Positions 16,605 to 43,328 of a DNA stretch of 64,000 nt are shown piece after piece (the first letter of the stretch is position 1; the number at the start of each line of letters is the position of its first letter). Position numbers and translations under genes: made by a program. Below the pieces are notes generated by a model, which was not told the DNA's origin, made no database searches, and saw only the letters and a list, made by a program, of their open reading frames with translations. The stretch is from a virus. The stretch is from positions 1 to 64,000 of the IMG/VR virus record IMGVR_UViG_3300045988_176357; one strand, written 5' to 3'.

Positions 16605-16682
16605 GGGACCGTAGCTTAGTCGGTTAGCAGCTGCTGACTCATACTCAGCCGGCCGCAGGTTCGAGCCCTGCCGGTCCCACCA
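16605..16682 (+). tRNA. tRNA-Met (anticodon CAT; elongator Met or Ile-lysidine type)
   Basis: Cloverleaf: acceptor GGGACCG/CGGTCCC, D-arm GCTT..AGC, anticodon stem GCTGA/TCAGC with loop CTCATAC, T-arm GCAGG TTCGAGC CCTGC. Encoded CCA. G1-C72 argues against an initiator. Confidence 0.85.
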
Positions 16683-17159: not shown

Positions 17160-18533
17160 TCATGATACTCCGATTTCCTGCATCAGCCATGCTATATTGT
17201 AGGTGTCATCAATGGCATAATCATAGATTCTTGCACGCGTGATACACGCATACAAATTGCGCCACGAACCACTCCAGGTATAATTGCCGAAGTTGAAACT
17301 ATAGGAGCTTGATAGGGTTAGAGACTTACTGGCACTTGTCTTCAATGTTCCATTTATATATAGTTTACACATGCCGTCCGTCGTGTATGTCACTAAAATG
17401 TGATACCACGTGTCAAGCTGTAACTCTTGTGTAACACCAATTAAAGAGTTACCTTCTTTCGTGCTCATCGTTATTGATGTGCCGTTAACCTGCAATCCCA
17501 ATCCATTGTATCCGTCATTGCTGCCATAAAAGAAAATCAGTTTGTTTTCCATCGTTTGTGTAAGACGCAATCCAAAAGAAATACTGATTTCGTGATTACC
17601 ATTCGGCAATGTACTATCTTTATCCCAATGTAAATAACCTGAATTAAGTACTGCTGTGGGAACACCGTCAACAGTGGAAAAGCTTACATTGCCTTCATTG
17701 CCTGTTGTAATACTTCCCGGATTTATCTCTATACTGTTATCCGTCATCAAAGGCACATAAAATACCGGGAGTGCTGGTTCAACGGCAAGGCTGCTGTAAA
17801 GAACGGCGACACGCACAGAACATGTGCTGTCATATATCATTCCGACTTGCGGAGTCATCCCGCTGTAAACCAGTCCTTCCGTGAGATCATCGCTGATCGT
17901 GTAACCGTTATCCCCCCACACCGCCTTGTAGCCGCTCCATGTCTTTGCGGTATCGTATGGGGTCAATACAAGGTCAGGATAGGCGTATGGGCTTGTATTG
18001 TTTTGCCAGCTCGTCACTTCCCACGGGTTGTCAGGGACCGTCGTCATGACTGAACGTATTTTCATTGTGTCCGAAGCTACATCGAATATGCACCAACGAT
18101 CTATCCCAGCAGTTGCGTTAGTATTCCTGATTTCCCATACGCCATCGGAAGTTCTCCATGTTCTGTTTTTCCCTGTGGCAGTCGCATCCACAATTGTATA
18201 CGTGCCATTGCATCCGTAAGCTGTATCACCAGTTACCTCGATAACAGCCCCAGATACTCCCGGTGTTACGCTGGCGCACTTGTAATACCCCGCCGAGGTG
18301 CCGCCGGAGCTCTCCAGCGTCCCTACAATGCCGTAGATGCTTACACCGGATTTGATGTTCTCCCCCAGCAGGTTGGCGTCTCCTGCGACCTTCACGGCTT
18401 TTGGCAGGTAGATTCCTTCAGCGGTTGATAATACTTTATCTTCAACGCCCGGTATAATCAGGCTTGAGCCGGTATAAGAGCTTATCGTGCCGGTGATTTT
18501 TTCACCGTTGACATAGGCTGTCTTACCGCTCAA
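17160..18533 (-). CDS. receptor-binding / tail fiber protein with C-terminal LamG (concanavalin-like lectin) domain
   Basis: Standard-code ORF. N-terminal SGGTSAGYYKCASV and TWSGYKAVWG modules are shared with the TAG-recoded gene 39679..40740. C-terminus is LamG-like. Start uncertain: TTG in track and no upstream ATG before TGA. Confidence 0.65.
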   Translation of the reverse strand: MSGKTAYVNGEKITGTISSYTGSSLIIPGVEDKVLSTAEGIYLPKAVKVAGDANLLGENIKSGVSIYGIVGTLESSGGTSAGYYKCASVTPGVSGAVIEVTGDTAYGCNGTYTIVDATATGKNRTWRTSDGVWEIRNTNATAGIDRWCIFDVASDTMKIRSVMTTVPDNPWEVTSWQNNTSPYAYPDLVLTPYDTAKTWSGYKAVWGDNGYTISDDLTEGLVYSGMTPQVGMIYDSTCSVRVAVLYSSLAVEPALPVFYVPLMTDNSIEINPGSITTGNEGNVSFSTVDGVPTAVLNSGYLHWDKDSTLPNGNHEISISFGLRLTQTMENKLIFFYGSNDGYNGLGLQVNGTSITMSTKEGNSLIGVTQELQLDTWYHILVTYTTDGMCKLYINGTLKTSASKSLTLSSSYSFNFGNYTWSGSWRNLYACITRARIYDYAIDDTYNIAWLMQEIGVS

Positions 18534-18709
18534 GATATCGCCCGCCCCAGCCGTGGCGTCTGTGGTGTCCGTGCCGCCTGATTCGATGCCGCCAATAGCA
18601 TTCGCACATTGGTACAGCGTGGAGTCCTGCGACAGGCTGCCGCCTTTATTGTTGATCGCCGTCCATACTTGTCAAAATATCATTCAAAGCCATAAATAAC
18701 CTCCTCAAG

Positions 18710-19642
18710 TTAAGCTGTTGTTACTGTCCATCCACGCTCAATAAGTGTCTGTTTATCTATTAATCCCTGACCAGTTGGTGGAGCTGATATTTCCTGATAG
18801 TTTATGTCCAAAGTTCCATTGGTTTTCGCATTCGAGACAAGCGATGCCAGTATATTATTCACAACATCAGAGGTAAATTTGTTAGAGTAGGCGGCAAGGT
18901 ATTTTAATGCTGTGTTTTGCGCTATATTCAGCATAGTTAAACCGTTGTTATTGCACGCTAACGTTACGAGGTTTGCATTATTACTGATATCAAGAGCTGA
19001 CAAAGCGTTCCCCTTACAATCCAGTGAAGTTAATGTGGGACATAAACTTATGTCGATGGATGTTAATGTGCTAGTCGTACAATTCAATGTCGTAACTGTT
19101 CCTTGTATCGTTGTTGTTCCTGCTGACAAGGTAAATTCAGCAGGGAATTCCGTATAGGTCTGTGAGGCGGATCCATTTGTTACAATGACAGAGCCTGTTG
19201 CATTGATTGCGACTTTACTTTGTCCTTGTGATCCGCTTTCTGATACGAGTGTAATTATTTCATCTCCTGATTCTCCGCCGCTGCCGCCTCCTGTCGGCGT
19301 CCCTATGATCGCCATTGCGGCGGATTCAAATGCGGATGTGTCGCCGCCGGAAGCATACGCCGGTTCAGCCTTTCCTGTATTGAATATCTTGGCTGCATAG
19401 CTCTCTGCTGTTCCGTTCGCCATTGCCGATGTGCCGCTGAATTCCAGAGGCTGCACTTTCAGTCCGGTACTGTCAGATACCAGCACACCAACCTCAAGTC
19501 CGTTCTCTATGGTCTGCACAGCTGCGGCAATGTCCATGAGGCTGTAAGGAGAAGCAACAGCGGCTCCCTTAGCTTCAGTCGCGCTCTTCAGTTTATTCCT
19601 GGCAAAGTCCAACGCATTGTATATATTGTCACTCTTAGACAT
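18710..19642 (-). CDS. leucine-rich-repeat (LRR) protein, probable receptor-binding accessory protein
   Basis: LRR units LTSIDISLCPTLTSLDCKGNALSALDISNNANLVTLACNNNGLTMLNI. Standard code. Start overlaps the stop of the upstream aaRS-like gene. Confidence 0.7.
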   Translation of the reverse strand: MSKSDNIYNALDFARNKLKSATEAKGAAVASPYSLMDIAAAVQTIENGLEVGVLVSDSTGLKVQPLEFSGTSAMANGTAESYAAKIFNTGKAEPAYASGGDTSAFESAAMAIIGTPTGGGSGGESGDEIITLVSESGSQGQSKVAINATGSVIVTNGSASQTYTEFPAEFTLSAGTTTIQGTVTTLNCTTSTLTSIDISLCPTLTSLDCKGNALSALDISNNANLVTLACNNNGLTMLNIAQNTALKYLAAYSNKFTSDVVNNILASLVSNAKTNGTLDINYQEISAPPTGQGLIDKQTLIERGWTVTTA

Positions 19643-20705
19643 GATGTATCCTTAATCTTTCAACAGCTTCTTCTTTACCTATAGCCTGCAGCACTGTATT
19701 GAGGTCGAGCGAATACGGGCTTCCGCACAGTGATTTCCTTGCAGCTCCGTATGCTTCCTTCCTGTCAAGCTTCTGTGCAGCTATCCATGCATCCACAGGC
19801 TTCTCACAGTCGAGGTACTTAATAAGACCCTCACATGAAATATGTTCCGGTCTTTCCCACAGATACCTGAACTGCACAGCGTCTTCTCCGCACCTTACAT
19901 GCTGCTTTATATACTGCCAGTACATGCCGCTTCCAGGCACACACGCCTCGCACACATCAGCACTCATATAGTCCCTGTTCATAGCCTTCAACTTCTTCAG
20001 ATCCATATGCGCAGGACTTTTATTGTTGCCTATGCTCAGCAGATACTTGTACAGGCACTCAGGCAGAATGCCCATATCCAGCACCTTCCCTACAGTGCCC
20101 GCACGATCTCTCTTGCTGAGAGGCTTCCCGTCGTCGCCGAGTATCATGGACATCGATCTGTACTCAGGAGCCTTGCATCCCATGGCTTCATACAGTGCAA
20201 TCTGCTTGCAGGTGTTGAACACATGGTCGTTGCCTCTGATGACAATAAGCTCTCCGAGTTCCATGAGAAGTGAATCATCCACGGCGTTGGCAAAGATGAA
20301 TGATGGCTCACCGTTGCTTCTGATGCATACAAACGGTTCCCAGGAGCTGTAGATGTTGCCCTGCACCTTGTCCTTGTAAGATGCTTCGCCTGCAGGAAAC
20401 CATATGGCACCATCCTTCTCAAACATCTTTCCCTTGCTCACAAGGTCTTTGGCTATGGAGATATGAAGTTCCTTGTTGTCGGACTGCCTGTATATCCTGT
20501 CAGGTTCCATGCCCATGCGCTTCATCGTGCCTATGATGCGTTCCGTGCACGCAGGTACCAGGCGGTCGTTGGCTGTGTCTTCTACTCGAAGTACAAAGAT
20601 CCCGTGCTCCCTGCGTGCAAGGTCATGGTTCAGTGCTGCCATGCGAAGGTTGCCTATGTGGATGTCGTCGCCGGTAGGCGAAGGTGCGAATCGTGTGACT
20701 GTCAT
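19635..20705 (-). CDS. class I aminoacyl-tRNA synthetase catalytic core of the GluRS/GlnRS family (GluQ-RS-like, no anticodon-binding domain)
   Basis: TRFAPSPTGDDIHIGNLRMAALNHDLARREHGIFVLRVEDTANDR aligns to the GluRS HIGH region. FANAVDDSLLMELGELIVIRGNDH and GDDGKPLSKRD match the KMSKS motif. 356 aa, standard code. Confidence 0.8.
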   Translation of the reverse strand: MTVTRFAPSPTGDDIHIGNLRMAALNHDLARREHGIFVLRVEDTANDRLVPACTERIIGTMKRMGMEPDRIYRQSDNKELHISIAKDLVSKGKMFEKDGAIWFPAGEASYKDKVQGNIYSSWEPFVCIRSNGEPSFIFANAVDDSLLMELGELIVIRGNDHVFNTCKQIALYEAMGCKAPEYRSMSMILGDDGKPLSKRDRAGTVGKVLDMGILPECLYKYLLSIGNNKSPAHMDLKKLKAMNRDYMSADVCEACVPGSGMYWQYIKQHVRCGEDAVQFRYLWERPEHISCEGLIKYLDCEKPVDAWIAAQKLDRKEAYGAARKSLCGSPYSLDLNTVLQAIGKEEAVERLRIHHV

Positions 20706-20764
20706 TGTGCCTCCTTTTGGACTTATTCTAGGCGCTGTCAGGAGGACGTAAACAGCTAAATAGT

Positions 20765-20840
20765 GCGCATATTTATGGCATAATAAAGTGAAGGAGGATC
20801 TTAGCAGTCAGGCGAGGTGCCTGGCGGGATCCTCCAACAC
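20765..20840 (+). repeat. direct repeat copy 2 (remnant 3' end of gene 14105..14581 plus hairpin)
   Basis: gcgcatatttatggcataataaagtgaaggaggat (34/35 identical), then ggaggatc..gatcctcc. Encodes ..TAK-CAYLWHNKVKEDL. Confidence 0.6.
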
Positions 20841-20861
20841 TTTCAACGAAAGGAGTCCGGA

Positions 20862-21095
20862 GTGGACACTATAGTTGATATCGTAAAGCAAGCAGAAGAA
20901 AAATAGCTTGCGCTTGCCAGAGCGCACAACGAGAATCTGAGACAGCAACTTGCAGCAACTGAAAAGGAACTGCGTGACAACTGGTTTCAGATTCTTCGGC
21001 TACAGTATCGTATAGATATGCTGGTGGGTTCAGCTATTGTTGCAGTTATCAGCATGATTGCCATCATTGCAGCTTACTTCATGTTTGCCCATTGA
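20862..21095 (+). CDS. small coiled-coil plus C-terminal TM protein with an in-frame TAG
   Basis: GTG start after RBS aaaggag. ..VKQAEEK-TAG-LALARAHNENLRQQL..VGSAIVAVISMIAIIAAYFMFAH. Position and architecture parallel the ORF at 14622. Confidence 0.3.
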
Positions 21096-21342
21096 GCACT
21101 AAAAAGACCCGTATGGTTGCTGCCATACGGGTCCAAACAGAAAGGTTCTCTTGTGATAAAGGAAATGTCTCTGCTGTTGCACAGCTCCAGAACAGTTGTG
21201 CAGTTCATTGAAGTTCGATAGTAGATCGAGCTTCTCCTCAACAAGGAACTGTCTTATTGTACATCCGACAGTGACAAAATCAAAGTACTGAAGAAGTGCA
21301 TTGACTGTCTGTTGCTGAAAGATTACATACAGTAAGCAAGCA

Positions 21343-22174: not shown

Positions 22175-22381
22175 AATTAAAGCTGTTTGACATTACAGTA
22201 TATACAGTACGATATACGTAACATCTCATGCATATAACGTATGTGCACACGTCCGGCAGGACAAGGCATCAGTGTGTACACGCATGAGAAGCACAATAAG
22301 GGTACAAATACGCGGAGCGTATCAGTACACTGGAGTGCCTGATCTGTGGCACTTTCTAGCGGCACATCCGAGGATACCACT

Positions 22382-23974
22382 ATGCGGGACTTATGGAATA
22401 CAGGCACCGAAGACTCTCCAATACTGCAGGGACAGGCAGGGAAACCCTTTTATCACTAGAAAGGTCCAAAGCTCAAGTTTCCCGACAACCCGGACAACAT
22501 CGTCGATAACAGCTGCTACTGCAGATATCCTTATATGCGCTATTTTTGGATCTACGCGAAAGTAGACTAGCAGACCCAGCAGCTGGACTTCTTCAGATTG
22601 TCCTTTCCTCAGGAAGCTCAGCAGGGCGACTGGTATGCGAACTACAGCATACAGCGTGCATAGGGCTGGCAGTGGGAAGTCATATAGCAGTACCACTATG
22701 CAGGGTGCGCAGCTCACAGAACCGATGTCGGCATATGGCAGACAGTACCTCTGTTCCCCTATGCCCAGCAGTGCGATGACGAGGACGACGAATAGATACC
22801 GATAAGCAACCTCACCTTCCCTAGCCCCTTGTATATAGGCTCCAAAGATGAGACCACAACTCAAGGGGGGCAACAGGTTGACACTCCATGCAGGAAGAAC
22901 ACAGGACCTGCTTCCCTTATGCGAATGCTTGTCTGTTCCTACAAGTGCTGCAACAATGTGCAGGGCTGCGGAACATAGGTAACCAATGACGACGATCCTC
23001 TGATCTGTCCTCCTGCAGGCAACTTCTGTTAGGCGTAGTTCAACGTCTCCTGGGAATATGACAAAGATGGCGCACAGAAGTTCTCATATGTGTCCATGCC
23101 ACTTAATGTGACATGCGGCTAGTGTCACCATCCCTAGCGCACAGATATCCTTTCCTGCACAACAGCCAGAATAAGGCTCTTCGGATAGCGCCTTGCTTTA
23201 GATGACTACAGCGTGTAGTCATGTGAGTAGTGCTGCAGGAAACTTAGGGACAGGGTGCTGTAGATGAAACCTCCTGTTGTGGACTGCAGAATATACAGGC
23301 TGTACGAATACCCAAAGGTGCCGCATGAAGATCCCGAAATAGGATGCACATGGGGAGAACCTGTTCTTGTATAGACTGCATAGGACTGGGCGCGTGTTCC
23401 ATATCAGATAGTCGGCAAGGGAGACGGCTGCCTTCCGCAGGGAGCGCATCAGCTGGACTATGTTCTCATATGCGACCAGACGAGCATGCAGGTAGTGGCA
23501 TATCAGTGGGTATAGTCAGCCGATTGCAATACCTAGCCCGATCCTCCGACAGACGGTCCTGTAGGATAGAGCACAAAAGGAACATAGTGCGACTGCGAGC
23601 CTATGCAGCAGGGCCAGTTCTTCCTTGATTAGGGATCGACACACGGTGACCGCAGCAATGAAGACCCTCCGTGCAACATTCCCGATGCTCCTCCATACAA
23701 GTACAGAAAGCTCAGCTCCAGCTGGCCTGCTCCATAGTTCGAACATACTCCGTTCGAGATCTACAGAGTCCGCCTTATAACGGACGGAGGCACAGGCTCC
23801 AACTAGAAGAGCTGCGGCATGTACCAGATGTAGACCGATGACAGCGGAAACATTCAGTGGCAGCGTGTCGCCAGTCACATGTACGACTATTAGATACTGT
23901 AGAACGGGTACATGGACAAGCTGGAGACGAGGTTCACATAGGAATAGGGTTCTTCTTATTATTACACTATAGTA
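22382..23974 (+). CDS. Cys-rich protein (TAG-recoded, about 35 in-frame TAG)
   Basis: Frame 2 is free of TAA/TGA from TGA 22340 to TAA 23972. First ATG is at 22382. Traced by coordinates. Confidence 0.5.
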
Positions 23975-24208
23975 AGGCAGGGCTGTGAGCCATAGGTGAA
24001 CTAGCAGGACAAGAGCCCGTTCGGCGACGACTGGCTGTAGGGACCTGCGGACAAGAACTGTTCCACATACTTCGCAACATACTGGAATCCGCAGGACGAC
24101 TGCAGCGGCAACACATAGAACCCGCCGCACACCACCGGCTGCACCAAATGGGACAGGCTCGGTCCGTTCAACTTCTCTCAGCTGAGTTCCCTCGGTCTGA
24201 TACCCGAC

Positions 24209-27200
24209 ATGTGGATACCTTATCAGTATGCATAGAACAAGTGGGGATACAAGTACATAAGAAGCAGCGGCGACGATTTCGGCTTCTGCGAGGATCCTCC
24301 TGCGCCGCCCAATATACAGAACGGTTTCTTTGTCATATCCATGTGGGCGCCTGACTGCGACTCATGCGGCAATGTGAACGGCTATCATGAACCATAGAGC
24401 TACAGACCTTAGCCGCAGTGTGCAATGATACAGCCCAATCTGTGCGAGGATCCGGTGCTTTAGCCGCTCGGCACAGGTTATCACCTGCACGTCACATCAA
24501 CATCTCAGGATTCGGATGTCACAGTAAGTCACAACTACTATCCTGTCGAGGACCAGAACGGCTATAACTGCACGATATCGCAGCAATAGGCAATGAAGTA
24601 CGAGTGCAATCTCGTATATGTCGTGTTCTCGGACAAGTTCGTCGACTACTGTCCGAGGTTCGAAGGCGGAATTGTGTTCAAGCCTGAAGACTCCACTCCC
24701 TATACGATATCCGGAGATGCATAGCCAGGCACATAGATAGAGGTCCAGTATGGATCTCAGAAGATCCTGGCCACAGTGCTGGCTGTGAACATGGATGCGG
24801 ACTACTGGTAGTAGCAATTCAAGGATGCGCAGATACAGTTCGATCCTTACTGCTGTGCCAGATACTACTATTACTATGTCAAAGTCCCATTGAAGGATCT
24901 GAACTAGCTTCCCTGTGTCAATCCGGACATGCAATGGCAGTTCGCAGGAAAGATTCCGTAGGCGTAGTTCATTCACTAGTGGATGTAGACGGACGTTTGG
25001 CTGTATGTGCAGCAGGAGAATACATAGCCGTATGCCATATTATGGAAAGCCGTATAGGAGAAGCTGTAGGGTGATGACCTCAAGATCACCGCAGCCATAA
25101 CAGGACAACATGTAAAAGATCCTGGCGTCGGCGCATATCTTGTTTAGGGCTGGGGCGCATAGTGCGAAGGTGAACAGGGCACATTGTCCGGCACAACGCC
25201 TCCTTAGTCCTGGGAATCTTCATTGCAGCCCATATCCGCTCCCAGCGCCGATGTGTATTAGGCTGCCGCAGCGTATGCAGGTTCGCAGAAACAGGACAGC
25301 TATACATAGTACTGCAAGACATATGACACTACAGCTGACTGTCAGCCCGCAGGTTCATAGGAAGTCTGCGCCACGTATGAAGACCCTGCAGTCTCGGGTC
25401 TGTACGCATTCAATGCTGCCACAGGCTAGTATGTGCAGGTCACAAGAAATGTTCCATAGGGCTTCTGCTAGGTCTTCTATTAGGAAGTCGCTGCCAAGTA
25501 CTGGTGTGTCCTCGGTTCAGATTTCAGGTACAACAGCAAGCCTGTGTACTATTCAGGCGTGCGCACTGAACAGGGCACGCCAAAGCTGATTTCCTTCGCA
25601 GGTACAGAATTGCAGGTATAGGAAACGACGCTGTAGCTGTAGAGCTGCTAGATCACAATTCAGTTCCCACTTACAGTGTACCCCGCGAAGAAGAACTTTG
25701 AGTAGCAGCTGAAGAACACAGAGCTGCAATTCGACTAGAACTGCTGTAACACATTCTCGTATTTCGGCTACAGCTACAGTTGCTCTTAGTTCTATCGGGG
25801 TGAAGGCCATTGCGGAGAGCCATGGCATTGGCCGACCAGGGACACATCTCAGTGTGCATCAAAGTGGTACTATATGGGAAAGATGCCGATGGCCACCTTC
25901 TACAGGAAATACCTTGCGCTTAACTGCTGGGTTCCTTTTGCTCCTTCCTCTGAGGACGACATCGGAGAAATCAGCTATTTCGTACAGGTTTCAGACAGCT
26001 CCAATTTCTGTTAGCCTGCGCCGCAACATGATGTCCCTCCATATATTTTAGGGCAGTGGTTGACGACTATCTAGCCTGATAAATGTGTGAATGGAGTTCC
26101 TGTAAAAGATGTATAGCAGTGTGTGCTTAATTATGCTCCTCCGCATTTATCGCCTTTTTAGGCCATGCCTCTGCTGATTGCAGCCGGTTGTACATGGCCG
26201 TATGAGTTCCAATCTTGTGATCCCGTCTATTGCATGGGTAACCGGGTGCTGCCCGGTGGTCTGTGGAGCCCGAATGAAGGCCTGGGCGGAAAGATACTTA
26301 TAGATTCACCTGATAACTGCTGCTCTGCATATTTCGTACGGAAGGACGTTACGTTATTCGGCGTAGCCATTAACTTTCCAGAGGCGAAAGGATACTTCAC
26401 AGGCAGGTTTGATACAGATACAGGATATCCGATATTCATCAATTTTGATGCTCCTCAGAATTCAGCCTCATCCAGGACAATACAGAAGGTGAACATAGAC
26501 GGCTCCGATGTGCGTTATATATTGTAGGAATACCCAAGATCGTATACAGAGCCGTCTTTATGCGGAAGAAGGATAGAGTTTCACCGGAGCTGCCTGCCAC
26601 AGGTCAAGTTCACATTGTTCTATTTGTAGTACTTGCCGTGCAAGCCTTATCCGACTCAGTACACAAAAGGCGATACGCAGACGCCGTAGTGGACATAGGT
26701 GCCGAAGGATCCCTGCGGTATCGATAAGATCTCCAACATTCCTGCAGGCGGCTGGTATGCCAAACCGAATCCCACAGCGGATGACGATCACGATCCGTAG
26801 CCGCTCGATCCCTGCGAGCCCTGGTACTGGGTTGTTCCTGTATGGCACTGTGAGGATGAGTAGCCTGCGGCTCCGACAACATTCCCGTAGGATCCTCCGA
26901 CATGGTAGTGCTGCCGCCAGATATACGTGTACTATCAGAAGATCAGCCCCGGAGATAAGCGGAAAGAGTACGATTCACAGGGCAACCTGATACAGAAGAA
27001 CTATTGCGACGTCCCTTGTGATGTCGACGGTAACGGCGTCGCAACATGGGCTCTTTCCGGTCCATATGTTCTGTACGTATAGGAGTGTCCTGATACACAT
27101 GACGGCATAAAGGAATAGGACATCCCGGGAGACGGCTTCTACTTGTCCACAGATATCACGCAGGGTTTCGGAGGTGCTGTGCCTGTACAGGACGGCTAGC

Positions 27201-28543
27201 TTAAGCCTTCCAGCTGCGACCCCTTCTATTACATTCACACAGAGATCCACTGCAAGGGCTAGGATATAGTGCCGCCTACGTGGTGTCCTCCTAACCAGCG
27301 GGTCAACTGGGATGTGTGCAGATGCAGAATCAAGGTTCTCAAGATAGGACCGATAAGAGGCAGGCTGCATTCATACGGCAGCTCATCCTAGTGGGCGTAT
27401 CTGCCGTGCAAGGACTATGCTCCCGGATTCAGTACAGCCAGAATAGATATACTTATAGGAGACAGCGTTGACGACAAGAGTCTCCGTGTTTCTTACTATA
27501 AAGGCGTGGCAAAGGCTGCCAACTATGAGTATGACTGCACAAAGATGGATTGTCCGTTTACAACCCTTGACAGCTACAGAAGGCGCTCTGCAGGGAGCTA
27601 CACCTACTACACTACAGTAGGTACAGGCGGGTAGAACGAATACGGACTCCCAAATATAGTGGCGTGGAACTACAGTTGGAGCGACGGACGCACACGGTAC
27701 TTCTATTGCAACCCGCAAGCCAGGGACGCAAGCATATACGTCGGCGTGTGTCTTGACAGCATGTGCTAGGTATAGCCGACAGACGAATAGATGCTCAGCT
27801 GGATAATAGGTGACCTGTCGGATGACTCAAGACTGGTGTCCAGTTATGATTTCCACACAGTGCACTACCACCCATAGGCTTACTGCAGCGATTTCGCCAC
27901 CAAATGGTGCGGATGCAATAATGTCGGTAACCGGAGCTGTAATGCCAATATCAACTCTTTCGTGTATACTACAGAGTATAGCTCAACTCAGACGACAACA
28001 GGTAACTGTACACAGCCGATAACCCATACTATGTACGAGGGCAGCTCTACAGAAGTGGTTTAGGTGTGTAACACTAATTACAGTGCAAATAGCGTAGACG
28101 TATATTTCCGTACTACGCAATGTCTGGGTTACTAGCCCGGCAGCTGGGACTGCTATACATAGTAGGAGTGTCAGCGATATGCTCCTTCCTATATTTTCAG
28201 TTTTTATACAGGCAAGCTGTAGGGCGACACATATACATCCATGTCGTGTGCCGATGCTCTGTGCGGCGATGGAGAGTTCATAGGATACGGCTCAGCAGGC
28301 TACTACGGAACGGGAACGAATAAGCCTTACTTTAGGTTGAGTGTGAACAGATCCTCAGGCTAGAACTATGCACAGATAACTGTAGACTTATCTCAGTACT
28401 CAGTCACGCAGAGTACAGAAGACTAGAGTACCTATACATGGGAGGACGGAGACTGTACGTACACAGATACATTCCACAACACAACCAACATTTCGCAGTA
28501 GATATCAGGCACATTAACCTTTAGAGTTACTTGTTAGGAGTGA
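24209..28543 (+). CDS. giant Cys-rich protein (about 1444 codons, TAG-recoded, about 60 in-frame TAG)
   Basis: Frame 2 is open from TGA 23996-98 to TGA 28541-43 except for TAG codons. Verified codon-by-codon backward from 26165 and spot-checked forward. First ATG is at 24209. Confidence 0.6.
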
Positions 28544-28549
28544 CAGCCA

Positions 28550-29617
28550 ATGCCTTGTTCATGCAAAAAGAAAAGCGACCTCAGTAAAGCGTCTTCTGTA
28601 TTTGTCCCGTCTAAAACGGCCTTTATGCCGGTCAGTCTTACCAGACACTACAAAGCACGTCTGCAGATGTCTGACTCTGCTCCAATCGCAGTGGTCTCCC
28701 CTGCATAGCTTGAGAAACAGCAGGCAGAGGCTCAGCCGGAATAGAAGACCTATCAGGACTCCCGTTATCCGTTCATATATGAGCCGGACAGCACCAAATG
28801 GGATTTCTCAGCTACTACAAAGCCGGATTAGTTGTGCATTAACTGCGCGATGAAACATATCGCTCTTGCGAACGTTCTTATATAGGGAGGCACATATCAG
28901 GATTATGTTGTGGCTGCCGGATAGCTTATGCTTGCAGGCGCTCATTACATGCAGCACAGTCATAACATGGCTCAGTATTGCCGTGTGCTGGCACACAGAC
29001 TGGTAAGGGATATGCGCGACAAGCAGAAGTGGCTTCCCATAATGCAGCTGCTTATGACCTATGCTATGAATCCCTCTGAGGATCTGCAGCCTTTTTGGGA
29101 CCAGGCGCAGGATATGGATGGACTTGGCTTCCTGCATGCCTAGATGCAGGGCTCATACACCGCGTCATTGGTGAATATGGGAGCAGCTTTTTCGTTGTTG
29201 TTCACATAGGTGTCTTATCTGGAGCTCAATAAAGGTTACGCTATAGGATACCTTACAAGAGCAGTCACTATTCCAATACCTGACTTAGGGTTTTCCATGT
29301 CGGATACACCGATGCAGAGGTACACGATACAGAAAGCCAGATAGGAATGGAAGATCATACAGGAGATGACGCAGGATTCTCCTTAGTACTATGAATGCAG
29401 GGACAGATTGCTGCATCTGATACATAATTATATTTCCATGTTTCTGGTGTGTGATAATTAGGTCAGACATGGAAGGGCAAAACGGACTGTGCGCCTGGTA
29501 CCGAATAAGGCGAAACTTGATCAGCTCAGCGACATCGATCTGACATAGAAGATGCGTGATTTCAGACAGAAGCAGCTTCAGGCACGCGCATCAAGCAGCG
29601 ACAGCTCTTCTTCCTGA
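28550..29617 (+). CDS. hypothetical protein (TAG-recoded)
   Basis: ATG 7 nt after the stop of the giant ORF (RBS taggag). Frame 2 is open to TGA 29615-17 with about 10 TAG codons. Contains the track ORF 28928..29143. Confidence 0.5.
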
Positions 29618-29797
29618 CGGCGTTTACAGAAGCTCCTTTTCCCTGTACACTGCATGGAAAAAGGAGCTTTTCCATAACAGACCTGCGCCTATAGCTGGGT
29701 TACATGTAGTAAGTCAGTGGCTGGATAAAAGCGATGCGCAGCTGCATAACGATTTTCTGTTTTCAGTATACCATAGAAGACATCCGAAGATAGCACA

Positions 29798-30154
29798 TCA
29801 GGCAGGCTTCCGATTCCGCAGCTTCCTAAGGAACCCGCACATAAGCCAGTCGATATAGTACGCAGGCACTTCGATCTCAGCGTCGGAGACGCCTGCGCCT
29901 TTCAGTCTGAACTGTACAGCGTGAAGGCACTCATGTGCGAGGGTGCCTATGTGTTCCGGATCACATGGGTCCAACTTCGGCATCCATATGACAATTGCGC
30001 TGCTCAGCTCCATGCAGACAGCATCCACATGGCTCCTAGGATCACCGGGATACGCCTTGTCCTTGCGCACCTCGCTGACAAACTCGTCGAAGTCGCCTAC
30101 ATACAGTACATATCTGCATCGAAACAGGGTATCATACAGCTTAACCTTGTGCAT
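29798..30154 (-). CDS. HExxH metallopeptidase-like protein (ImmA/IrrE-type size), standard code
   Basis: MHKVKLYDTLF..IGTLAHECLHAVQFRLKGAGVSDAEIE. RBS aaggag. No in-frame TAG. Confidence 0.5.
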   Translation of the reverse strand: MHKVKLYDTLFRCRYVLYVGDFDEFVSEVRKDKAYPGDPRSHVDAVCMELSSAIVIWMPKLDPCDPEHIGTLAHECLHAVQFRLKGAGVSDAEIEVPAYYIDWLMCGFLRKLRNRKPA

Positions 30155-30725
30155 TGAGCATCTCCTTCTCTCTGGCATCATACACGGCATAGTTCGTTGT
30201 CGCCCAGTCAAGATCCTCTTCCGTCTTATACAGTACTTCAACGCGCGGCTTGTCACAGTTGCTCAGATTAAGATACACGCTTGCAGGCGCAACAGGATTG
30301 ATCTTCGCGCACTCGACAAGCTTCCACGGAATGTCATAAGGAATGACAAGGTGTCCCCTCGGCAGTGACAGCTTCACGTACAGGCGACCTTCCTTCTCCA
30401 CAAACTTCCAGCCGCCCTTCTTCACGTACCAGCCGTTCAGCTTCTCTACGCACTCATCGTGGAGCTCATGCTCGAGCATCTTTATCGTGCGCTGTCTGGC
30501 TGTAGCAAGGAACGTGTCATGGTTCTTGCTTACACGTCCCTTCAGCATCCTTCTGTATCTGTGCGCTTCGTATGTGTCCAGCTGCTTATTGTGCTCGTGA
30601 CAGTACTGCAACATTTCATACACGACGTCCTTGAAGGTTTCCAATGCCCTGTGAAGCTTGTTGCTGATTCTGGTGCTGACTTCTGTCTCTGCTGTGAACT
30701 GTACGACTTTGATTTCGGGTACCAT
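30141..30725 (-). CDS. hypothetical protein, standard code (upstream partner of the metallopeptidase-like gene)
   Basis: Internal ATG with strong RBS aggag (MVPEIKVVQFTAETEV..). 194 codons with no TAG. Overlaps the start of the downstream gene. Confidence 0.45.
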   Translation of the reverse strand: MVPEIKVVQFTAETEVSTRISNKLHRALETFKDVVYEMLQYCHEHNKQLDTYEAHRYRRMLKGRVSKNHDTFLATARQRTIKMLEHELHDECVEKLNGWYVKKGGWKFVEKEGRLYVKLSLPRGHLVIPYDIPWKLVECAKINPVAPASVYLNLSNCDKPRVEVLYKTEEDLDWATTNYAVYDAREKEMLNAQG

Positions 30726-31050
30726 GAGTGCTCCTGCGTTGCAATGTGTTATATATACCTTATTATAAGTATAACAACAGAACATGAAAGGAGCTTGCAT
30801 GACAGACATCGTCATTCCACTCAGCACATAGTCGAACACGGACAATCTCGAACTCAGAATCGCTCTCAGATCCATATAGAAATACGCACAGAACGTCGGA
30901 AACATATGGATCTATACAGAGGCGGAACTTCCCTGGCTGCGCAATGCGAATGTAATCAAGATGGGAGATCCTGTGAGAGATCTCAAGGATACGAACCTCA
31001 TCAACAAGGTTCTCGCGGCGGCTCACAACAAAGACGTAGCATAGCGATTC

Positions 31051-31524
31051 ATGTTCTGGAGCGATGATCAGCTTCTCACAGGCCCTCTTGATCTGGACAA
31101 GGCTCCTGTTGTGTACAATGTCAGATCCATGCCTCAGTTCGCAGGAGCTCCCAATAAGTGGTACAACAGAATGGAGCACACGCTTAACTACGTGAAGAAG
31201 CATACAGGGCACGAGCTGAAACACAATTACGACGCACATACTCCGCAGCCCTACACGAAGAGCAAAGTCATAGAGGTCTTCGAATCAGTTCCGTACAGGG
31301 AGCAGCCCGGCTTCTGCATCAACACCATTTACTATGGCATGCTTGGCGTACCTCCTGAAGTCGAGCAGACGCAGATCAAACACACCTTCGAGAAGGGCAC
31401 CATGGCTATCCCTGCAAAGATGCTGACATATGCAGGATACGATGACGCTTCCTGGATGCGCGGCGGAGCCTACTTCTTCCTCGGCATGTTCTTTGATCTC
31501 AGCAAGTATGAGGCGCCTAAATGA
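31051..31524 (+). CDS. hypothetical protein
   Basis: Intact 157-aa ORF. Stop overlaps the next start (ATGA). Confidence 0.5.
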   Translation: MFWSDDQLLTGPLDLDKAPVVYNVRSMPQFAGAPNKWYNRMEHTLNYVKKHTGHELKHNYDAHTPQPYTKSKVIEVFESVPYREQPGFCINTIYYGMLGVPPEVEQTQIKHTFEKGTMAIPAKMLTYAGYDDASWMRGGAYFFLGMFFDLSKYEAPK

Positions 31525-33035
31525 TAGTGCTCTCCAGAGGAAAATGCGGTGACATCATTGCACAGTGCTGTTTAGCGCGCAAGAAGTACGAGCAGACGGG
31601 AGAGAAGCTGGAGCTTTACTGCAGAGAACACAAGCCTTTCAAAAAGGGACAGCTGTAGTTCATTGAGCCTCTACTGAAGCTGCAGCCTTATTTCGACAAG
31701 TGCGGCTGGGTGCAGAACATAACGGACGTGCACCCTTAGATACCTTAGCTCACAGAGATCAGCATTAAGCTGGCCAGATAGTACGCAAAGAAGTACAACT
31801 ACTACAGCGCATGGTGGGTGGACGAATAGTCATGGTGGCGGCAGATACCTGCTGTACACAGAGAGACTGATCTAAGATACAGAATACCTCTCGCATACAA
31901 CGAGCCGCTGTAGGAGACCATGCCGCCGTGGATTACAGTTCCGCAGCACAGACATGTACAGGAACCGTATATCATACTTGCTGCAGTACCGAGGTACAGA
32001 TGCTGCACGAACTTTCGCGCGCTTAAGAGACTGTCCGACAAATACCGCATACTGTATATAGGACATCCGCAGGACTACAACGCACTCGCAAAGGATGTCG
32101 CAGAGTACTGTCCGATACAGGATATCATCCATGCTGCACAGCTGATACAGAGCGCATCATTGTTCGTAGGGACTCAGACGCTGTTCACCTGGCTCGCATA
32201 GTCGATGGGTGTAGACAGAATAGTCTCATGTTCACCTGTATTCAAGGATACTCACATGCGCTGCACGAAGGGATTCAAAGGCGCTTTCATGTACCCTGCA
32301 TAGCTTGCCTTGATGCTGCGAAGCTGGGAGTGCCACAACGGGCTGCAGACTTCTGTCGGCTATGTGATAGGCACATACGGAAGCCCTGCTTACATCGACC
32401 TGCAGCTTGCTCTGCACAAAGGCAAGTGGGGACATGACGTACTTGTGTCCGATGACGGTTCGCAGGATCCCGGGCTCGTGCAGGTGTGCAGTAAGTGGAA
32501 TGTCCCTCTTGTCGGCAACAGGGATCAGCGCCTTGGCCACCAGGTCGGAGACCTTGCAGTATACAAGCGCGGGCTGCAGTATTTCAAGGACAAGGACTGG
32601 ATGGTGAAGCTGTCCAGGCGTTTCGTCTGGATGCAGGACATGCAGGACACAATACAGCAGCACGACAGGCTCTGCTGGAAGCCCTGTCTGAGTTCCTGGT
32701 GGATTGCGAAGCCCTCGCTTAAAGGTCAGGCGCTGACGACCAGCTGCATCGCCTTCAACAAGGGCGCCATGCCTGAGTAGATCGTACAGGACTTCGGCAG
32801 CATGGACATCAGGTCCACCTACATGTAGAAGTATATCTACAGATGGCTGGCACAGTACTACGGCGCAGAACCTTTCACATAGTGGAGCGAAGTGTACACA
32901 GCTCCGGGAAGATGCGTCACTGCCGACAGCATACTGTGGAGATAGAAGAACACCCCACAGGACTACTATAAGCTGTCGCAGGAATTGGGACTTCAGTGGG
33001 AACTGAAGGATTTCCAGGACATCATAACAGAATAA
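31521..33035 (+). CDS. hypothetical protein (TAG-recoded, about 17 in-frame TAG)
   Basis: Frame 0 is open from TAA 31518-20 / ATG 31521 to TAA 33033-35. Contains track ORFs 31920..32201 and 32310..32780. Confidence 0.6.
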
Positions 33036-33064
33036 CGCTGTGTCCTTAGGAAAAAGGACATGCC

Positions 33065-33688
33065 ATGAACAGACGCGTACTGCTGTTTCTGCTTAAGCTG
33101 TTGTTCAGTTACAAGCGGAATAAAGCCAAAGTTATAGATGCCATAGGCAAGATCCGTATCAGCCTGTTTCCCATGTGGGTGCTGTATCAGCCTTTCCCTT
33201 ACAAAGTGACCGGACAGGACATACAGATGGTGCAGAACAGGATACAGCCCGGTGACATAATACTCACAGGCTGCTCATGGAAAAAGCTGTAGGATCTTGT
33301 GGTGCCCAACAGGTACAGGCTGACACACGCAGGTATCTATGTTGGTGACAATACAGTAGTGCATGCTGTGACGAGCGGTGTATAGTAGCTGCATATTGTG
33401 GACTTTCTCAGATGCGACCGCGTATGTGTGCTGCGTGTCGAAGGCGACCATGAAGCTGCGATAAGACGCGCCATACGTTTCATAGGATAGCCTTATGACT
33501 TTGATTACAGACAGGGCTAGGACGCTCTGTACAGCTTCTAGCTGTGCGCATGCTGCTACAGGTAGCTGTAGTTCCAGAGGAAACCGCTGAAGCTGTTCTG
33601 GTTTACGTTGCCGTCCATATGTGGCAAGTACTATTACGACAAGTCCTTCGTGGACTCCGAATACTGCAAGGTGATATATGAGTGCTGA
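33065..33688 (+). CDS. permuted papain-fold / NlpC-P60-like peptidase (putative cell-wall hydrolase), TAG-recoded
   Basis: PGDIILTG..HAGIYVGDNTVVHA motif after an N-terminal signal-like helix. Frame 2 is open to TGA 33686-88. Confidence 0.5.
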
Positions 33689-34250: not shown

Positions 34251-34322
34251 GGCAGATAAATGAGTTCACATTATTGCTGAGTAGGCAGAAAACTACATCA
34301 GTAGGCAGAATATAGGATCAAC

Positions 34323-34724: not shown

Positions 34725-34731
34725 GACATAT

Positions 34732-38767: not shown

Positions 38768-38771
38768 TGTC

Positions 38772-39479: not shown

Positions 39480-39678
39480 GGCCAGCTACAGCTCGTCCTT
39501 AAGTGATAGCGCATTTGTACCGATCTCGACAAGAAATCAGTATAGCTTGTACGACATGAACCAAGCAGGCACAGCATAGTCATATCTGATATTTACCAGC
39601 ACAAACATCACTCCGTGCTTCCGATAACATCTGCTGTATGTTTTCCGCATAACACAGTATGAACCTATAGGAGAACAT

Positions 39679-40740: not shown

Positions 40741-40788
40741 TGCTACAGCCAGTACTCAACACAGCAGGCAGCAAACAAGGACTTAACT

Positions 40789-43316: not shown

Positions 43317-43328
43317 GGAGGTGCTTGA

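What the first reader, a model, noticed from the sequence alone, without database searches (positions are those of the whole stretch)
19635..20705. Phage-encoded GluRS/GlnRS-family catalytic core: candidate charging enzyme for the TAG suppressor
A 356-aa standard-code ORF carries a near-canonical class I HIGH region (FAPSPTG..HIGN..LRVEDTANDR) and a KMSKS-like PLSKR, and aligns along its length to the GluRS catalytic domain. It lacks the C-terminal anticodon-binding domain, as in GluQ-RS. In a genome that reads TAG as (probably) Gln, a Glu/Gln-family synthetase is a strong candidate for charging a suppressor tRNA(CUA) with Glx. It sits in the TAG-free early region, where recoding machinery would be expected. 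A truncated GluRS dedicated to a suppressor tRNA would be an uncommon arrangement.
Basis: partly seen in the sequence, partly recalled or inferred. Interest (0 to 1): 0.8.

Follow-up and report, generated by a model that had tools for sequence, protein, structure and literature searches.

The report
Miniature GluRS in TAG=glutamate phage
A common human-gut phage reads the stop codon TAG as glutamate (not glutamine, as assumed) in its late genes and carries its own stripped-down glutamyl-tRNA synthetase, written without any TAG, which probably loads glutamate onto a TAG-reading tRNA that I could not find.

Summary
The ORF is real (19635-20705, minus strand, 356 aa) and is a class I Glu-family synthetase with every glutamate-binding and catalytic landmark intact. 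(1) It is not a GluQRS-like core without an anticodon-binding domain. The model (pLDDT 94) matches full-length bacterial GluRS (TM 0.82-0.85, against 0.51-0.54 for GluQRS), and the tree puts it beside GluRS (96/100), so it is a trimmed five-domain GluRS. The Arg that reads anticodon base 36 is replaced by an invariant His. (2) TAG here means Glu, not Gln. Late genes lose GAR-Glu as they gain TAG. A less-recoded relative has Glu opposite 35 of 67 TAG columns (Gln 6; delta lnL 55.7). Standard-code relatives and invariant acidic RNAP positions agree. The enzyme belongs to a tiny family (two 50%-identity clusters among 1.84 billion representatives). Its five genomic contexts I could read (four relatives' loci plus the window) are all TAG-recoded. 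Each gene has no TAG, while neighbours write 57-83% of Glu as TAG. The best reading is a dedicated charging enzyme for a Glu-accepting tRNA(CUA). The main gap is that no such tRNA was found in about 100 kb of a genome of about 186 kb. UAG-to-Glu is not reported for phages in the literature searched.

The parts
19635..20705 (-). Gene for the compact GluRS-like enzyme (356 aa plus stop). It has 0 TAG and all 24 Glu are written GAA/GAG.
   Evidence: ORF. PF00749 E=2e-41. TIGR00464 gltX_bact 202.9 bits, below the 290 cut-off. AF2 pLDDT 94.3. Foldseek best hits are full-length bacterial GluRS. TAG avoidance P=5.8e-10.
20649..20660 (-). HIGH signature, H16-I-G-N19.
   Evidence: Aligned to Tth GluRS H15-V-G-T18. 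H and G are invariant in 13/13 family members and 37/37 cellular GluRS.
20109..20123 (-). KMSKS-type loop, P195-L-S-K198-R199.
   Evidence: Aligned to Tth K243-I-S-K246-R247. S-K-R is invariant everywhere, and P at the first position also occurs in 5/37 cellular GluRS.
19899..19901 (-). His269 codon, at the position of the Arg (Tth R358) that reads anticodon base C36 in discriminating GluRS.
   Evidence: MAFFT mapping and independent hhalign agree. His in 13/13 family members; cellular GluRS have R 29, K 4, E 3, N 1.
19638..20018 (-). Trimmed C-terminal helical region (aa ~230-356), corresponding to the stem-contact and anticodon-binding domains of GluRS.
   Evidence: Helices at high confidence. 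Aligned to Tth 277-468 with deletions of Tth 277-299, 335-351, 379-391 and 399-408. Weak PF19269 hit for aa 304-352.
20706..21134 (-). Upstream non-coding stretch with two terminator-like hairpins (21105-21134, 20909-20926) and a promoter-like match (20725-20752).
   Evidence: Consensus scan. The promoter matches are no more frequent than in shuffled sequence, so this is suggestive only.
17160..19642 (-). Two TAG-free genes downstream in the same orientation: an LRR protein (18710-19642, overlapping the GluRS stop by 8 nt) and a Laminin_G_3 protein (17160-18533). A terminator-like hairpin follows at 17040-17060.
   Evidence: The homologous Laminin_G_3 genes in L001 and L099 do contain TAG.
22382..28543 (+). 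Giant Cys-rich late ORF (2053 aa, 97 TAG, 3.3% GAR-Glu). A divergent giant TAG-rich ORF (1,800-2,470 aa) lies next to the GluRS-like gene in all five family contexts.
22343..64000 (+). TAG-recoded late block. Across 28 genes, TAG is 3.57% of codons, GAR-Glu 2.26% and Gln 5.11%.
61916..64000 (+). Start of the intein-rich RNAP beta/beta' fusion gene (complete in L092 7766-17881). Its conserved acidic columns carry TAG.
16605..16682 (+). The only tRNA gene in the window. Its anticodon is CAU (Met/Ile2 type) and CCA is encoded. It is NOT a suppressor. It is syntenic with the GluRS-like gene in L004.

Best explanation
The gene encodes an active, miniaturised glutamyl-tRNA synthetase that the phage uses to charge its own amber-reading tRNA(CUA) with glutamate.

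Proposed sequence of events:
- The enzyme is made first, because its gene contains no TAG and is readable in the host's standard code.
- The enzyme then makes Glu-tRNA(CUA).
- The TAG-laden late genes (virion proteins, virion RNAP) then become translatable, with TAG read as Glu.
- Anticodon recognition is re-tuned rather than lost. The C-terminal domain is kept in trimmed form, but the Arg that reads C36 of tRNA-Glu is an invariant His, consistent with accepting A36 of a CUA anticodon.

Shown:
- enzyme family membership and fold;
- an intact active site;
- TAG = Glu;
- restriction of the family to TAG-recoded phages in every context I could read;
- TAG avoidance in the gene.

Inferred:
- aminoacylation activity;
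- the tRNA(CUA) substrate;
- the role of His269;
- the timing.
For: Enzyme:
- PF00749 E=2e-41. The best NCBIfam model is bacterial gltX at 203 bits, against GluQRS 110 and GlnRS 24.
- Residues R5, A7, S9, E42, N140, D143/144, R157, H161 and S197-K198-R199 match the Glu/ATP-binding landmarks of Tth GluRS and are invariant in the family.
- The model has pLDDT 94.3 and TMq 0.82-0.85 to full-length GluRS.
- In the NJ tree the family is monophyletic 100/100, with a sister group of GluRS only in 96/100.
- His269 aligns with Tth R358 by both MAFFT and hhalign.

TAG = Glu:
- Late genes have E 2.26%, Q 5.11% and TAG 3.57%. Early genes have E 5.36% and Q 3.39%.
- Against the less-recoded relative L096, window TAG faces E 35 (GAA 20, GAG 15), D 7 and Q 6. 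Orthologue totals are Q 117 vs 117, while TAG is +42 and GAR-Glu is -60. Delta lnL(E-Q) = 55.7.
- Against the standard-code phages Arash and Vibrio D181, TAG faces E 28, D 16 and Q 11. BLOSUM62 sums are E 141 and Q 79.
- TAG sits at invariant D/E columns of RNAP beta (PVDIVLNPLG, HMVDDKMHAR...ISE.....PE.P.V) and, by my reading of the motif, at the catalytic-acid position of three LAGLIDADG motifs.
- At strain level, TAG<->GAG occurs at 3/279 sites, CAG<->GAG at 0/318, and other first-position T<->G replacements at 0/875.

Linkage of the gene to recoding:
- The family is only two 50%-identity clusters among 1.84e9 representatives, scoring 572 and 533 bits, and the next hit scores 256 bits.
- No close member (above 37% identity) occurs in IMG/VR, and none occurs in GenBank phages.
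- All five contexts are TAG-recoded, with the gene next to a giant ORF that is 5-6.7% TAG.
- Each GluRS-like gene has 0 TAG among 17-27 Glu codons, while its neighbours write 57-83% of Glu as TAG. P ranges from 5e-7 to 3e-21 per lineage.
- It is the only translation-related protein gene recognised among the annotations for the ~100 kb read.

Precedent: Jade phages carry TrpRS + tRNA(UCA) + RF1 modules written in standard code.
Against: - No tRNA(CUA), or any suppressor, was found in the window, in about 27 kb to its left, in about 9 kb to its right, or within 10 kb of the gene in four other lineages. This used ARAGORN at default, relaxed, intron and organellar settings, plus Rfam up to E=10. 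About 86 kb of the genome could not be reached.
- A recoded relative in IMG/VR shows no GluRS-like gene in the 55 kb read or in the pattern scan, so the enzyme may not be indispensable for TAG decoding in the wider group.
- TAG<->CAG exchanges are frequent. This leaves room for partly ambiguous Glu/Gln decoding or a past TAG=Gln stage.
- The protein scores below the curated equivalog cut-off for gltX (203 vs 290 bits).
- It lacks the ~37-residue segment of the acceptor-binding insertion (Tth 106-142), so normal tRNA handling is not guaranteed.
- No release-factor gene or RF1 countermeasure was seen.
- There is no biochemical evidence.
Confidence: 0.6

Rival explanations
1. It is an ordinary auxiliary GluRS, like those of huge phages. 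It would boost charging of host or phage tRNA-Glu(UUC) during infection, with no special link to TAG.
For: Huge phages carry host-like GluRS genes (IMG/VR loci L005-L084). No tRNA(CUA) was found near the gene. The active site is that of a normal GluRS.
Against: The family is sharply separated from cellular and huge-phage GluRS (533 bits falling to 256 bits). It is found only in TAG-recoded contexts. It is about 100 aa shorter, with the C36-reading Arg replaced by an invariant His. It strictly avoids TAG amid TAG-rich neighbours in five lineages. In late genes most Glu is written TAG, so demand for tRNA-Glu(UUC) charging falls rather than rises.
Confidence: 0.17
2. It is a non-discriminating GluRS that makes Glu-tRNA(CUA), which host GatCAB then amidates fully or partly. 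TAG would then be read as Gln or as a Glu/Gln mixture.
For: TAG<->CAG exchange is frequent: 22 of 70 non-shared columns against L004, 9 strain-level events, and 8 of 25 L096-private TAGs. Other gut phages use TAG=Gln. Loss of the R358 equivalent is typical of non-discriminating GluRS (my knowledge of Sekine et al. 2001).
Against: Glu is favoured over Gln by delta lnL 55.7. Gln content is unchanged while GAR-Glu falls as TAG rises. TAG occupies invariant Asp/Glu columns of RNAP and catalytic-acid positions of homing endonucleases, where Gln would be damaging. GAA and GAG face TAG in their normal usage ratio.
Confidence: 0.12
3. It is a GluQRS-like tRNA-modifying enzyme that glutamylates queuosine or another base in an anticodon loop instead of aminoacylating a 3' end.
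For: It is short (356 aa) and matches GluQRS models at E~1e-31. GluQRS shares the same catalytic core.
Against: GluQRS model scores are half those for gltX and far below their cut-offs (110 vs 250-277 bits). TMq to GluQRS is 0.51-0.54, against 0.85 to GluRS. The family groups with GluQRS in only 3/100 bootstraps. It has a GluRS-type C-terminal domain. It lacks the insertion segment that carries the Zn site.
Confidence: 0.04
4. It is a catalytically dead or repurposed GluRS homologue, for example a tRNA-binding regulator or decoy.
For: It has deletions in the acceptor-binding insertion and in the C-terminal domains, and a K-to-P change in the KMSKS loop.
Against: All substrate-binding and catalytic residues are invariant across a family that has diverged to 39% identity. 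PLSKR also occurs in 5/37 bona fide GluRS.
Confidence: 0.04

Closest known systems
Code-change modules of TGA-recoded Jade phages (TrpRS + tRNA-Trp(UCA) + RF1; AP1 and HF2 pairs)
   Same: A phage-encoded class I synthetase is written in standard code in a genome whose late genes use a reassigned stop codon. It is proposed, and for TrpRS shown in vitro, to charge the phage suppressor tRNA.
   Different: The amino acid and codon differ (Glu/UAG rather than Trp/UGA). No adjacent suppressor tRNA or release factor was found here. The enzyme is miniaturised and forms its own family rather than being a near-normal aaRS.
Bacterial GluRS (gltX), discriminating and non-discriminating forms (e.g. T. thermophilus 1J09/1N78, T. 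maritima 3AFH)
   Same: The five-domain fold is the same (TMq 0.82-0.85). The HIGH and KMSKS loops and all Glu-binding residues match. The C-terminal motif is shared. It is the sister group in the tree.
   Different: The phage enzyme is about 100 residues shorter. It lacks Tth 106-142 of the acceptor-binding insertion and several helices of domains 3-5. R358 is His. It scores below the equivalog cut-off. It is encoded by a phage and tied to a stop-codon reassignment.
GluQRS (YadB/GluQ), glutamyl-queuosine tRNA-Asp synthetase
   Same: It is a short GluRS paralogue with the same catalytic core.
   Different: GluQRS has no anticodon-binding domain and keeps a Zn site in the insertion domain. The phage enzyme has the C-terminal domains, lacks that insertion segment, and does not group with GluQRS.
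Full-length GluRS genes of huge phages (Al-Shayeb et al. 2020)
   Same: These are phage-encoded GluRS.
   Different: They are host-like, about 460-500 aa, at most 37% identical to this family, and not linked to recoding.
Eukaryotic UAR-to-Glu codes (Blastocrithidia nonstop; peritrich ciliates, NCBI code 30)
   Same: UAG is read as glutamate through a tRNA-Glu with a stop-reading anticodon (abstracts; own knowledge).
   Different: Those are nuclear codes of protists using the cellular GluRS. Here the code is used only in the late genes of a bacterial virus, with a dedicated viral enzyme.
Genetic code 15 phages (TAG-to-Gln; crAss-like, Lak, phAss-1)
   Same: They are gut phages with TAG-recoded late or structural genes and standard-code early genes.
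   Different: In those phages the amino acid is Gln, they are thought to rely on host GlnRS, and no dedicated synthetase has been found. Here TAG aligns with Glu.

Membership tests
Class I glutamyl-tRNA synthetase (bacterial GluRS, gltX) | Catalytic domain PF00749 above the Pfam gathering score | tested here: met
   142.3 bits against a cut-off of 23.4, E=2.1e-41.
Class I glutamyl-tRNA synthetase (bacterial GluRS, gltX) | HIGH and KMSKS signature loops | tested here: met
   H16-I-G-N19 and P195-L-S-K198-R199. The PLSKR variant also occurs in 5/37 cellular GluRS.
Class I glutamyl-tRNA synthetase (bacterial GluRS, gltX) | Glutamate/ATP-binding residues (Tth R5, A7, S9, E41, Y187, N191, R205, W209/H) | tested here: met
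   R5, A7, S9, E42, F136, N140, R157 and H161 are all invariant in the 13 family members aligned. The Tth sequence was recalled from memory and validated on 12 landmarks.
Class I glutamyl-tRNA synthetase (bacterial GluRS, gltX) | Alpha-helical C-terminal anticodon-binding domains | tested here: met
   Present in trimmed form. hhalign spans to Tth residue 468 at probability 100%. TMq is 0.82-0.85 to full-length GluRS. PF19269 alone is below its cut-off (16.4 vs 23.6 bits).
Class I glutamyl-tRNA synthetase (bacterial GluRS, gltX) | NCBIfam equivalog TIGR00464 above its curated cut-off | tested here: not met
   202.9 bits against 289.95. It is best described as a divergent GluRS paralogue family, not an equivalog of gltX.
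Class I glutamyl-tRNA synthetase (bacterial GluRS, gltX) | tRNA-dependent glutamate activation and 3'-aminoacylation | not testable with these tools
   Needs purified protein and tRNA.
GluQRS (glutamyl-Q tRNA-Asp synthetase) | Absence of an anticodon-binding domain (about 300 aa, catalytic core only) | tested here: not met
   The C-terminal helical domains are present.
GluQRS (glutamyl-Q tRNA-Asp synthetase) | Curated NCBIfam GluQRS models above cut-off, and phylogenetic grouping with GluQRS | tested here: not met
   About 110 bits against cut-offs of 250-277. An exclusive clade with GluQRS appears in 3/100 bootstraps.
GluQRS (glutamyl-Q tRNA-Asp synthetase) | Zn-binding motif in the insertion domain | tested here: not met
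   The corresponding segment (Tth 106-142 region) is deleted in the family. The location of the motif comes from my own knowledge.
Phage 'code-change module' (Jade type) | aaRS gene written in standard code in a genome with recoded late genes | tested here: met
   0 TAG in five lineages, with P from 5e-7 to 3e-21. Late genes are recoded.
Phage 'code-change module' (Jade type) | Cognate suppressor tRNA encoded next to the aaRS | tested here: not met
   No suppressor tRNA lies within 10 kb in five lineages or in about 100 kb of this genome.
Phage 'code-change module' (Jade type) | Release-factor gene in the module | tested here: not met
   No RF family appears among the Pfam annotations of called genes in the loci read.
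Genetic code 15 (TAG = Gln) phage | TAG columns align best with Gln | tested here: not met
   Glu is favoured, with lnL E -132.9 against Q -188.6. Counts are E 28 vs Q 11 against standard-code relatives.

The most novel reading that the evidence does not exclude
A widespread human-gut phage lineage (genomes of about 186-198 kb, distantly related to Salmonella phage Arash) uses a genetic code not found in the literature searched for any virus or prokaryote. UAG means glutamate in late genes. The lineage enforces this code with its own orthogonal pair: a miniaturised GluRS whose anticodon pocket is rebuilt (Arg to His at the base-36 reader), and a tRNA(CUA) that remains to be located. This would be the first dedicated synthetase known for an amber-recoded phage.
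Probability: 0.5. Interest if true: 0.9.

Novelty: new variant of a known kind. Interest (0 to 1): 0.8.

Why it matters
Surveys of recoded phages report only TAG-to-Gln and TGA-to-Trp, and state that dedicated synthetases are rare, with none for TAG.
- A TAG-to-Glu phage code would add a new natural reassignment.
- It would mean that code-15 annotation of such genomes puts Gln where Glu belongs, at 3-7% of residues in the late proteins.
- It would show that a phage can impose a codon meaning that the host's own synthetases would not readily supply.
- A naturally compact GluRS (356 aa) specific for a CUA anticodon would be a candidate orthogonal pair for genetic-code expansion, an area where phage TrpRS/tRNA pairs are already being exploited.
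- It gives a concrete, testable handle on the open question of how amber-recoded phages switch the code during infection.

Tried and rejected
- **Suppressor tRNA search, all negative.**
  - ARAGORN at default, 80% and 70% thresholds, intron and organellar modes, and Rfam up to E=10, on the window and all extension loci.
  - Extending the genome by exact-protein look-ups: about 27 kb to the left and about 9 kb to the right.
  - Using the TnpB as a multi-copy anchor, which found only the known site.
  - Walking the IMG/VR relative by exact DNA match, which gave 7.7 kb and no tRNA.
  - Searching IMG/VR for the tRNA(CAU) 3' half, which found only a fragment of the same phage.
  - Contexts of divergent family members and a JGI metagenome scan, which yielded one 5-kb contig.
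- **Family annotation of late proteins.** PHROGs and Pfam gave almost nothing, so a Codetta-style Pfam inference was not feasible.
- **Pairwise window-vs-L004 substitution counts.** On their own these could not separate Glu from Gln (X-E 24, X-Q 23). This was resolved only with a less-recoded relative and with standard-code relatives.
- **Strain-level SNPs.** There were too few TAG events for a firm call.
- **TAG meaning in the IMG/VR relative.** Only 18 columns were available, which is inconclusive.
- **A short LAGLIDADG motif query against PDB.** No hits.
- **Ideas considered and rejected.**
  - The tRNA(CAU) is not a disguised suppressor, because its anticodon loop is unambiguously CUCAUAC.
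  - The minus-strand TAG-free ORFs in the late region are antisense artefacts.
  - TAG as Asp or Lys gives a much lower likelihood.
Full report
**1. The observation**

The ORF exists at 19635-20705, but on the minus strand. It is 356 aa with an ATG start. It contains RFAPSPTGDDIHIGNLR, LRVEDTANDR and KPLSKRD.
- Pfam PF00749 (class I Glu/Gln synthetase catalytic domain) matches at E=2.1e-41. There is also a weak sub-threshold hit of residues 304-352 to the end of the GluRS anticodon-binding domain PF19269.
- Among NCBIfam models the best is bacterial gltX at 202.9 bits, below its 290-bit equivalog cut-off. GluQRS models reach about 110 bits and GlnRS 24 bits.
- Among solved structures the best sequence matches are bacterial GluRS (1e-34), with GluQRS at 2e-14.

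**2. The genome**

The window is from an abundant human-gut phage.
- It is 100% identical to parts of ENA contigs of 141.5 and 192 kb. Related contigs reach 186-198 kb.
- From about 22.3 kb to the window end, the + strand carries long ORFs only if TAG is read as sense. Examples are 2053 aa with 97 TAG, 624 aa with 30 and 710 aa with 26. The first 22 kb is TAG-free.
- The early part encodes NrdD/NrdG, a primase, an RNA-ligase-like protein and a TnpB. Late proteins have almost no PHROG or Pfam matches.
- Distant cultured, standard-code relatives exist: Salmonella phage Arash and Vibrio phages D181, D148 and D69. Their portals are about 24% identical, and Arash and D181, the two whose regions I read, share the portal-then-RNAP gene order.

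**3. What TAG means**

Four independent analyses say Glu.

*(a) Composition.*
- In 28 late genes, GAR-encoded Glu is 2.26%, Gln 5.11% and TAG 3.57%. In 13 early genes, Glu is 5.36% and Gln 3.39%.
- E+TAG is therefore a normal 5.8%, whereas Q+TAG would be 8.7%.
- Several late proteins have no GAR-Glu at all.

*(b) A less-recoded relative in IMG/VR* (UViG_3300028048_000092; loci L096/L097).
- Across nine orthologue pairs the window has 83 TAG, 69 E and 117 Q. The relative has 41 TAG, 129 E and 117 Q.
- The 67 window TAG codons that face a sense codon face E 35 times (GAA 20, GAG 15), D 7 and Q 6.
- Under the empirical substitution profiles of the same alignments, lnL is -132.9 for Glu, -184.0 for Asp and -188.6 for Gln.

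*(c) Standard-code relatives.*
- Against Arash and Vibrio D181, TAG columns hold E 28, D 16, Q 11, K 9 and R 9.
- E is enriched 3.8-5.3 fold. BLOSUM62 sums are E 141, Q 79 and D 50.

*(d) Conserved positions.* The window's last ORF begins a giant gene, complete in L092 (3372 aa, 92 TAG). It encodes an RNAP beta/beta' fusion interrupted by six intein-like insertions.
- In the 1231-aa extein, TAG lies at columns that are D/D/D in three bacterial references (GTPvDIvLNPLG and HmVDDKmHAR). It also lies at columns that are E/E/E (..ISE.. and ..PE.P.V) and E/D/D. Only one or two columns favour Q.
- By my reading, TAG also occupies the catalytic-acid position of the first LAGLIDADG motif in three of the inteins (FMGWYLSXG twice, LIGWCVAXA once). 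That this position is the catalytic acid comes from my own knowledge of these endonucleases. TAG also faces Glu in PI-PkoII's LAFLEGYFIGDG.

*Strain-level variation (96-99.9% identity) points the same way, but weakly.*
- TAG<->GAG occurs at 3/279 sites. The direct Q/E change CAG<->GAG occurs at 0/318, and other first-position T<->G replacements at 0/875.
- TAG<->CAG occurs at 9/451 sites, comparable with conservative replacements.

*One unexplained feature remains.* TAG<->CAG exchange is frequent. This could reflect easy E<->Q change through one transition, a former TAG=Gln stage, or some ambiguity in decoding.

I put TAG = mainly Glu at about 0.85.

**4. The enzyme**

*Model and fold.*
- An AlphaFold2 model built from a 50-sequence alignment is very confident (pLDDT 94.3, pTM 0.89). 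It includes helices through residue 352.
- Foldseek places it with full-length bacterial GluRS: 8jpv, 3afh, 2o5r and 1j09 at TMq 0.82-0.85, aligned over 436-468 columns. GluQRS reaches only 0.51-0.54.
- hhalign between the family profile and a cellular GluRS profile gives probability 100% over residues 1-356 against 1-468.
- An NJ tree used 261 catalytic-core columns, 55 taxa, E. coli GlnRS as outgroup, and E. coli and Acinetobacter GluQRS. The family is monophyletic (100/100) with a sister group of GluRS only (96/100). It groups with GluQRS in 3/100.
- The enzyme is therefore not a GluQRS-like core. It is a complete GluRS trimmed by about 100 residues.

*Mapping onto T. thermophilus GluRS.* I recalled that sequence from memory and checked it on 12 published landmarks.
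- All Glu/ATP-binding residues and the HIGH and KMSKS loops are conserved and invariant in the family. PLSKR also occurs in 5/37 cellular GluRS.
- The deleted segments are Tth 106-142 (acceptor-binding insertion, where many GluRS and GluQRS hold Zn; that location is my own knowledge), 277-299 (this subclade only), 335-351, 379-391 and 399-408.
- Tth Arg358 reads C36 and underlies discrimination against tRNA-Gln (my knowledge of Sekine et al. 2001). It aligns with His269, which is invariant in all 13 family members aligned. Cellular enzymes have R 29, K 4, E 3 and N 1 at that column. MAFFT and hhalign agree.
- A CUA anticodon differs from the CUC of tRNA-Glu only at base 36, so a rebuilt base-36 pocket is what a tRNA(CUA)-specific GluRS would need. 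This last step is inference.

**5. The family and its contexts**

- The 5.8-billion-protein search found 13 clusters (354-385 aa, 39-98% identity, full-length). Scores then drop from 239 to 154 bits at ordinary GluRS.
- The exhaustive profile search of 1.84 billion representatives found only two 50%-identity clusters (572 and 533 bits), followed by 256 bits.
- No close member (best 37% identity) is in IMG/VR and none is in GenBank phages. One more copy is in JGI metagenomes.
- In all five contexts that could be read (window, L001, L004, L098, L099), the gene lies next to a divergent giant ORF of 1,800-2,470 aa. That ORF is 5-6.7% TAG and only 1.1-3.6% GAR-Glu. In L001, L098 and L099 the gene sits directly between TAG-rich genes.
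- Each GluRS-like gene writes all of its 17-27 Glu as GAR, while its neighbours write 57-83% of theirs as TAG. P ranges from 5e-7 to 3e-21 per lineage. This is the signature expected of a gene that must be translated before TAG can be decoded, as in the standard-code code-change modules of Jade phages.
- In the window the gene heads a minus-strand unit with an LRR gene and a Laminin_G_3 gene. The unit is bracketed by terminator-like hairpins. Promoter matches are at chance level.

**6. The missing piece**

- The only tRNA in the window has anticodon CAU.
- No CUA or UUA tRNA was found at any sensitivity in the window, in about 27 kb to the left (L085, L106, L110), or in about 9 kb to the right (L092-95). 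None was found near the gene in four other lineages, or in 55 kb of the IMG/VR relative.
- About 86 kb of the genome of about 186 kb could not be reached with the tools.
- The cultured relative Arash keeps its tRNAs, including a tRNA-Glu, in clusters among small early genes. An unsampled tRNA cluster is therefore plausible.
- In the published survey, only 35-40% of recoded phages had recognisable suppressor tRNAs.

**7. Comparison with what is known**

- The literature held here reports only TAG-to-Gln and TGA-to-Trp (plus code 25) in phages. It records dedicated synthetases only for TGA (the TrpRS of Jade phages, validated in vitro). It states that none was found for TAG-recoded phages.
- UAG/UAR-to-Glu is known only in protists.
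- Huge phages carry ordinary full-length GluRS.
- The present case is therefore a new variant of a known kind, namely phage stop-codon recoding with a phage synthetase. It has a new codon meaning and a new, compact enzyme family.

**8. Verdict**

- The best explanation, at confidence 0.6, is a dedicated miniaturised GluRS that charges a phage tRNA(CUA) with Glu, so that TAG-rich late genes are read with TAG = Glu.
- The main rivals are a generic auxiliary GluRS (0.17), a Glu-then-amidation or ambiguous route (0.12), a GluQRS-like modifier (0.04) and a dead or repurposed enzyme (0.04).

Noticed in passing
window 9120-10773 (+): This is a 1654-nt insertion relative to the 90%-identical strain L086. 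It consists of a group I intron (9121-9417, Rfam 54 bits, above the gathering score) followed directly by a TnpB/IS605 OrfB gene (9572-10702). It is an IStron-like element inserted at the 3' end of the RNA-ligase-like gene.
   Followed up: partly
window 2214-2455 (+): A second group I intron-like sequence scores 40 bits, below the gathering score of 50. It lies between nrdD and nrdG. In relatives nrdD itself is split into two ORFs, sometimes with an HNH endonuclease ORF between them (L085 6213-9114; L086 6215-9109).
   Followed up: no
window 61916-64000 (+); complete in L092 7766-17881: A giant 3372-aa gene encodes an RNAP beta/beta'(N-terminal) fusion. It is interrupted by six intein-like insertions of 150-548 aa, most of them with LAGLIDADG domains. 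Two of them are separated by only four extein residues, and one sits inside the catalytic NADFDGD-type motif (MDYDGDT|...|VNLHVP). The extein is 1231 aa.
   Followed up: partly
window 16605-16682 (+): A solitary tRNA with anticodon CAU and an encoded CCA end lies 3 kb from the GluRS-like gene, and this arrangement is conserved in L004. Whether it is Met or Ile2 (lysidine) type was not determined.
   Followed up: partly
L106 1247-5530 (about 10-18 kb left of the window start): The early region contains a reverse transcriptase (RVT_1) next to a Prok-E2_D protein and a ThiF/E1-like protein. This is a ubiquitin-like conjugation set. RusA lies nearby.
   Followed up: no
window 22382-28543 (+) and homologues in L001, L004, L098, L099: A giant, very Cys-rich late protein of 1,800-2,470 aa has no family match and the highest TAG density (5-6.7%). 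A protein of this kind is always the divergent neighbour of the GluRS-like gene.
   Followed up: partly
L096 vs window (orthologues at window 30.7-58.4 kb): TAG codons private to the IMG/VR relative face CAG in the window (8) more often than GAR (3). This is the opposite of the window's own private TAGs (E 35, Q 6). It could be a trace of an older TAG=Gln stage or simply E<->Q drift.
   Followed up: partly
L097 (IMG/VR contig positions 38.7-60.6 kb): The recoded relative has no GluRS-like gene at the syntenic position upstream of its giant ORF, and none was detected in the contig by the family pattern scan.
   Followed up: partly
window 33065-33688 (+): A late C92/NlpC-P60-type peptidase has Ser at the position aligned with the Cys of YiiX's YCSEVV motif (YSFXLC against YCSEVV), and TAG at the position of the following Glu.
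   Followed up: no
window 35885-38767 and 44716-46440 (+): Tail-fibre-like proteins have collagen-like G-X-Y repeats and internally repeated modules. In these modules TAG alternates with Asp at equivalent positions (PKGXKGD against PKGDKGD).
   Followed up: no
window 59558-62965 (-): Long TAG-free minus-strand ORFs (up to 348 aa) lie opposite the recoded genes. They have an aberrant Leu/Cys/Arg-rich composition and are probably antisense artefacts that standard-code gene callers report.
   Followed up: partly
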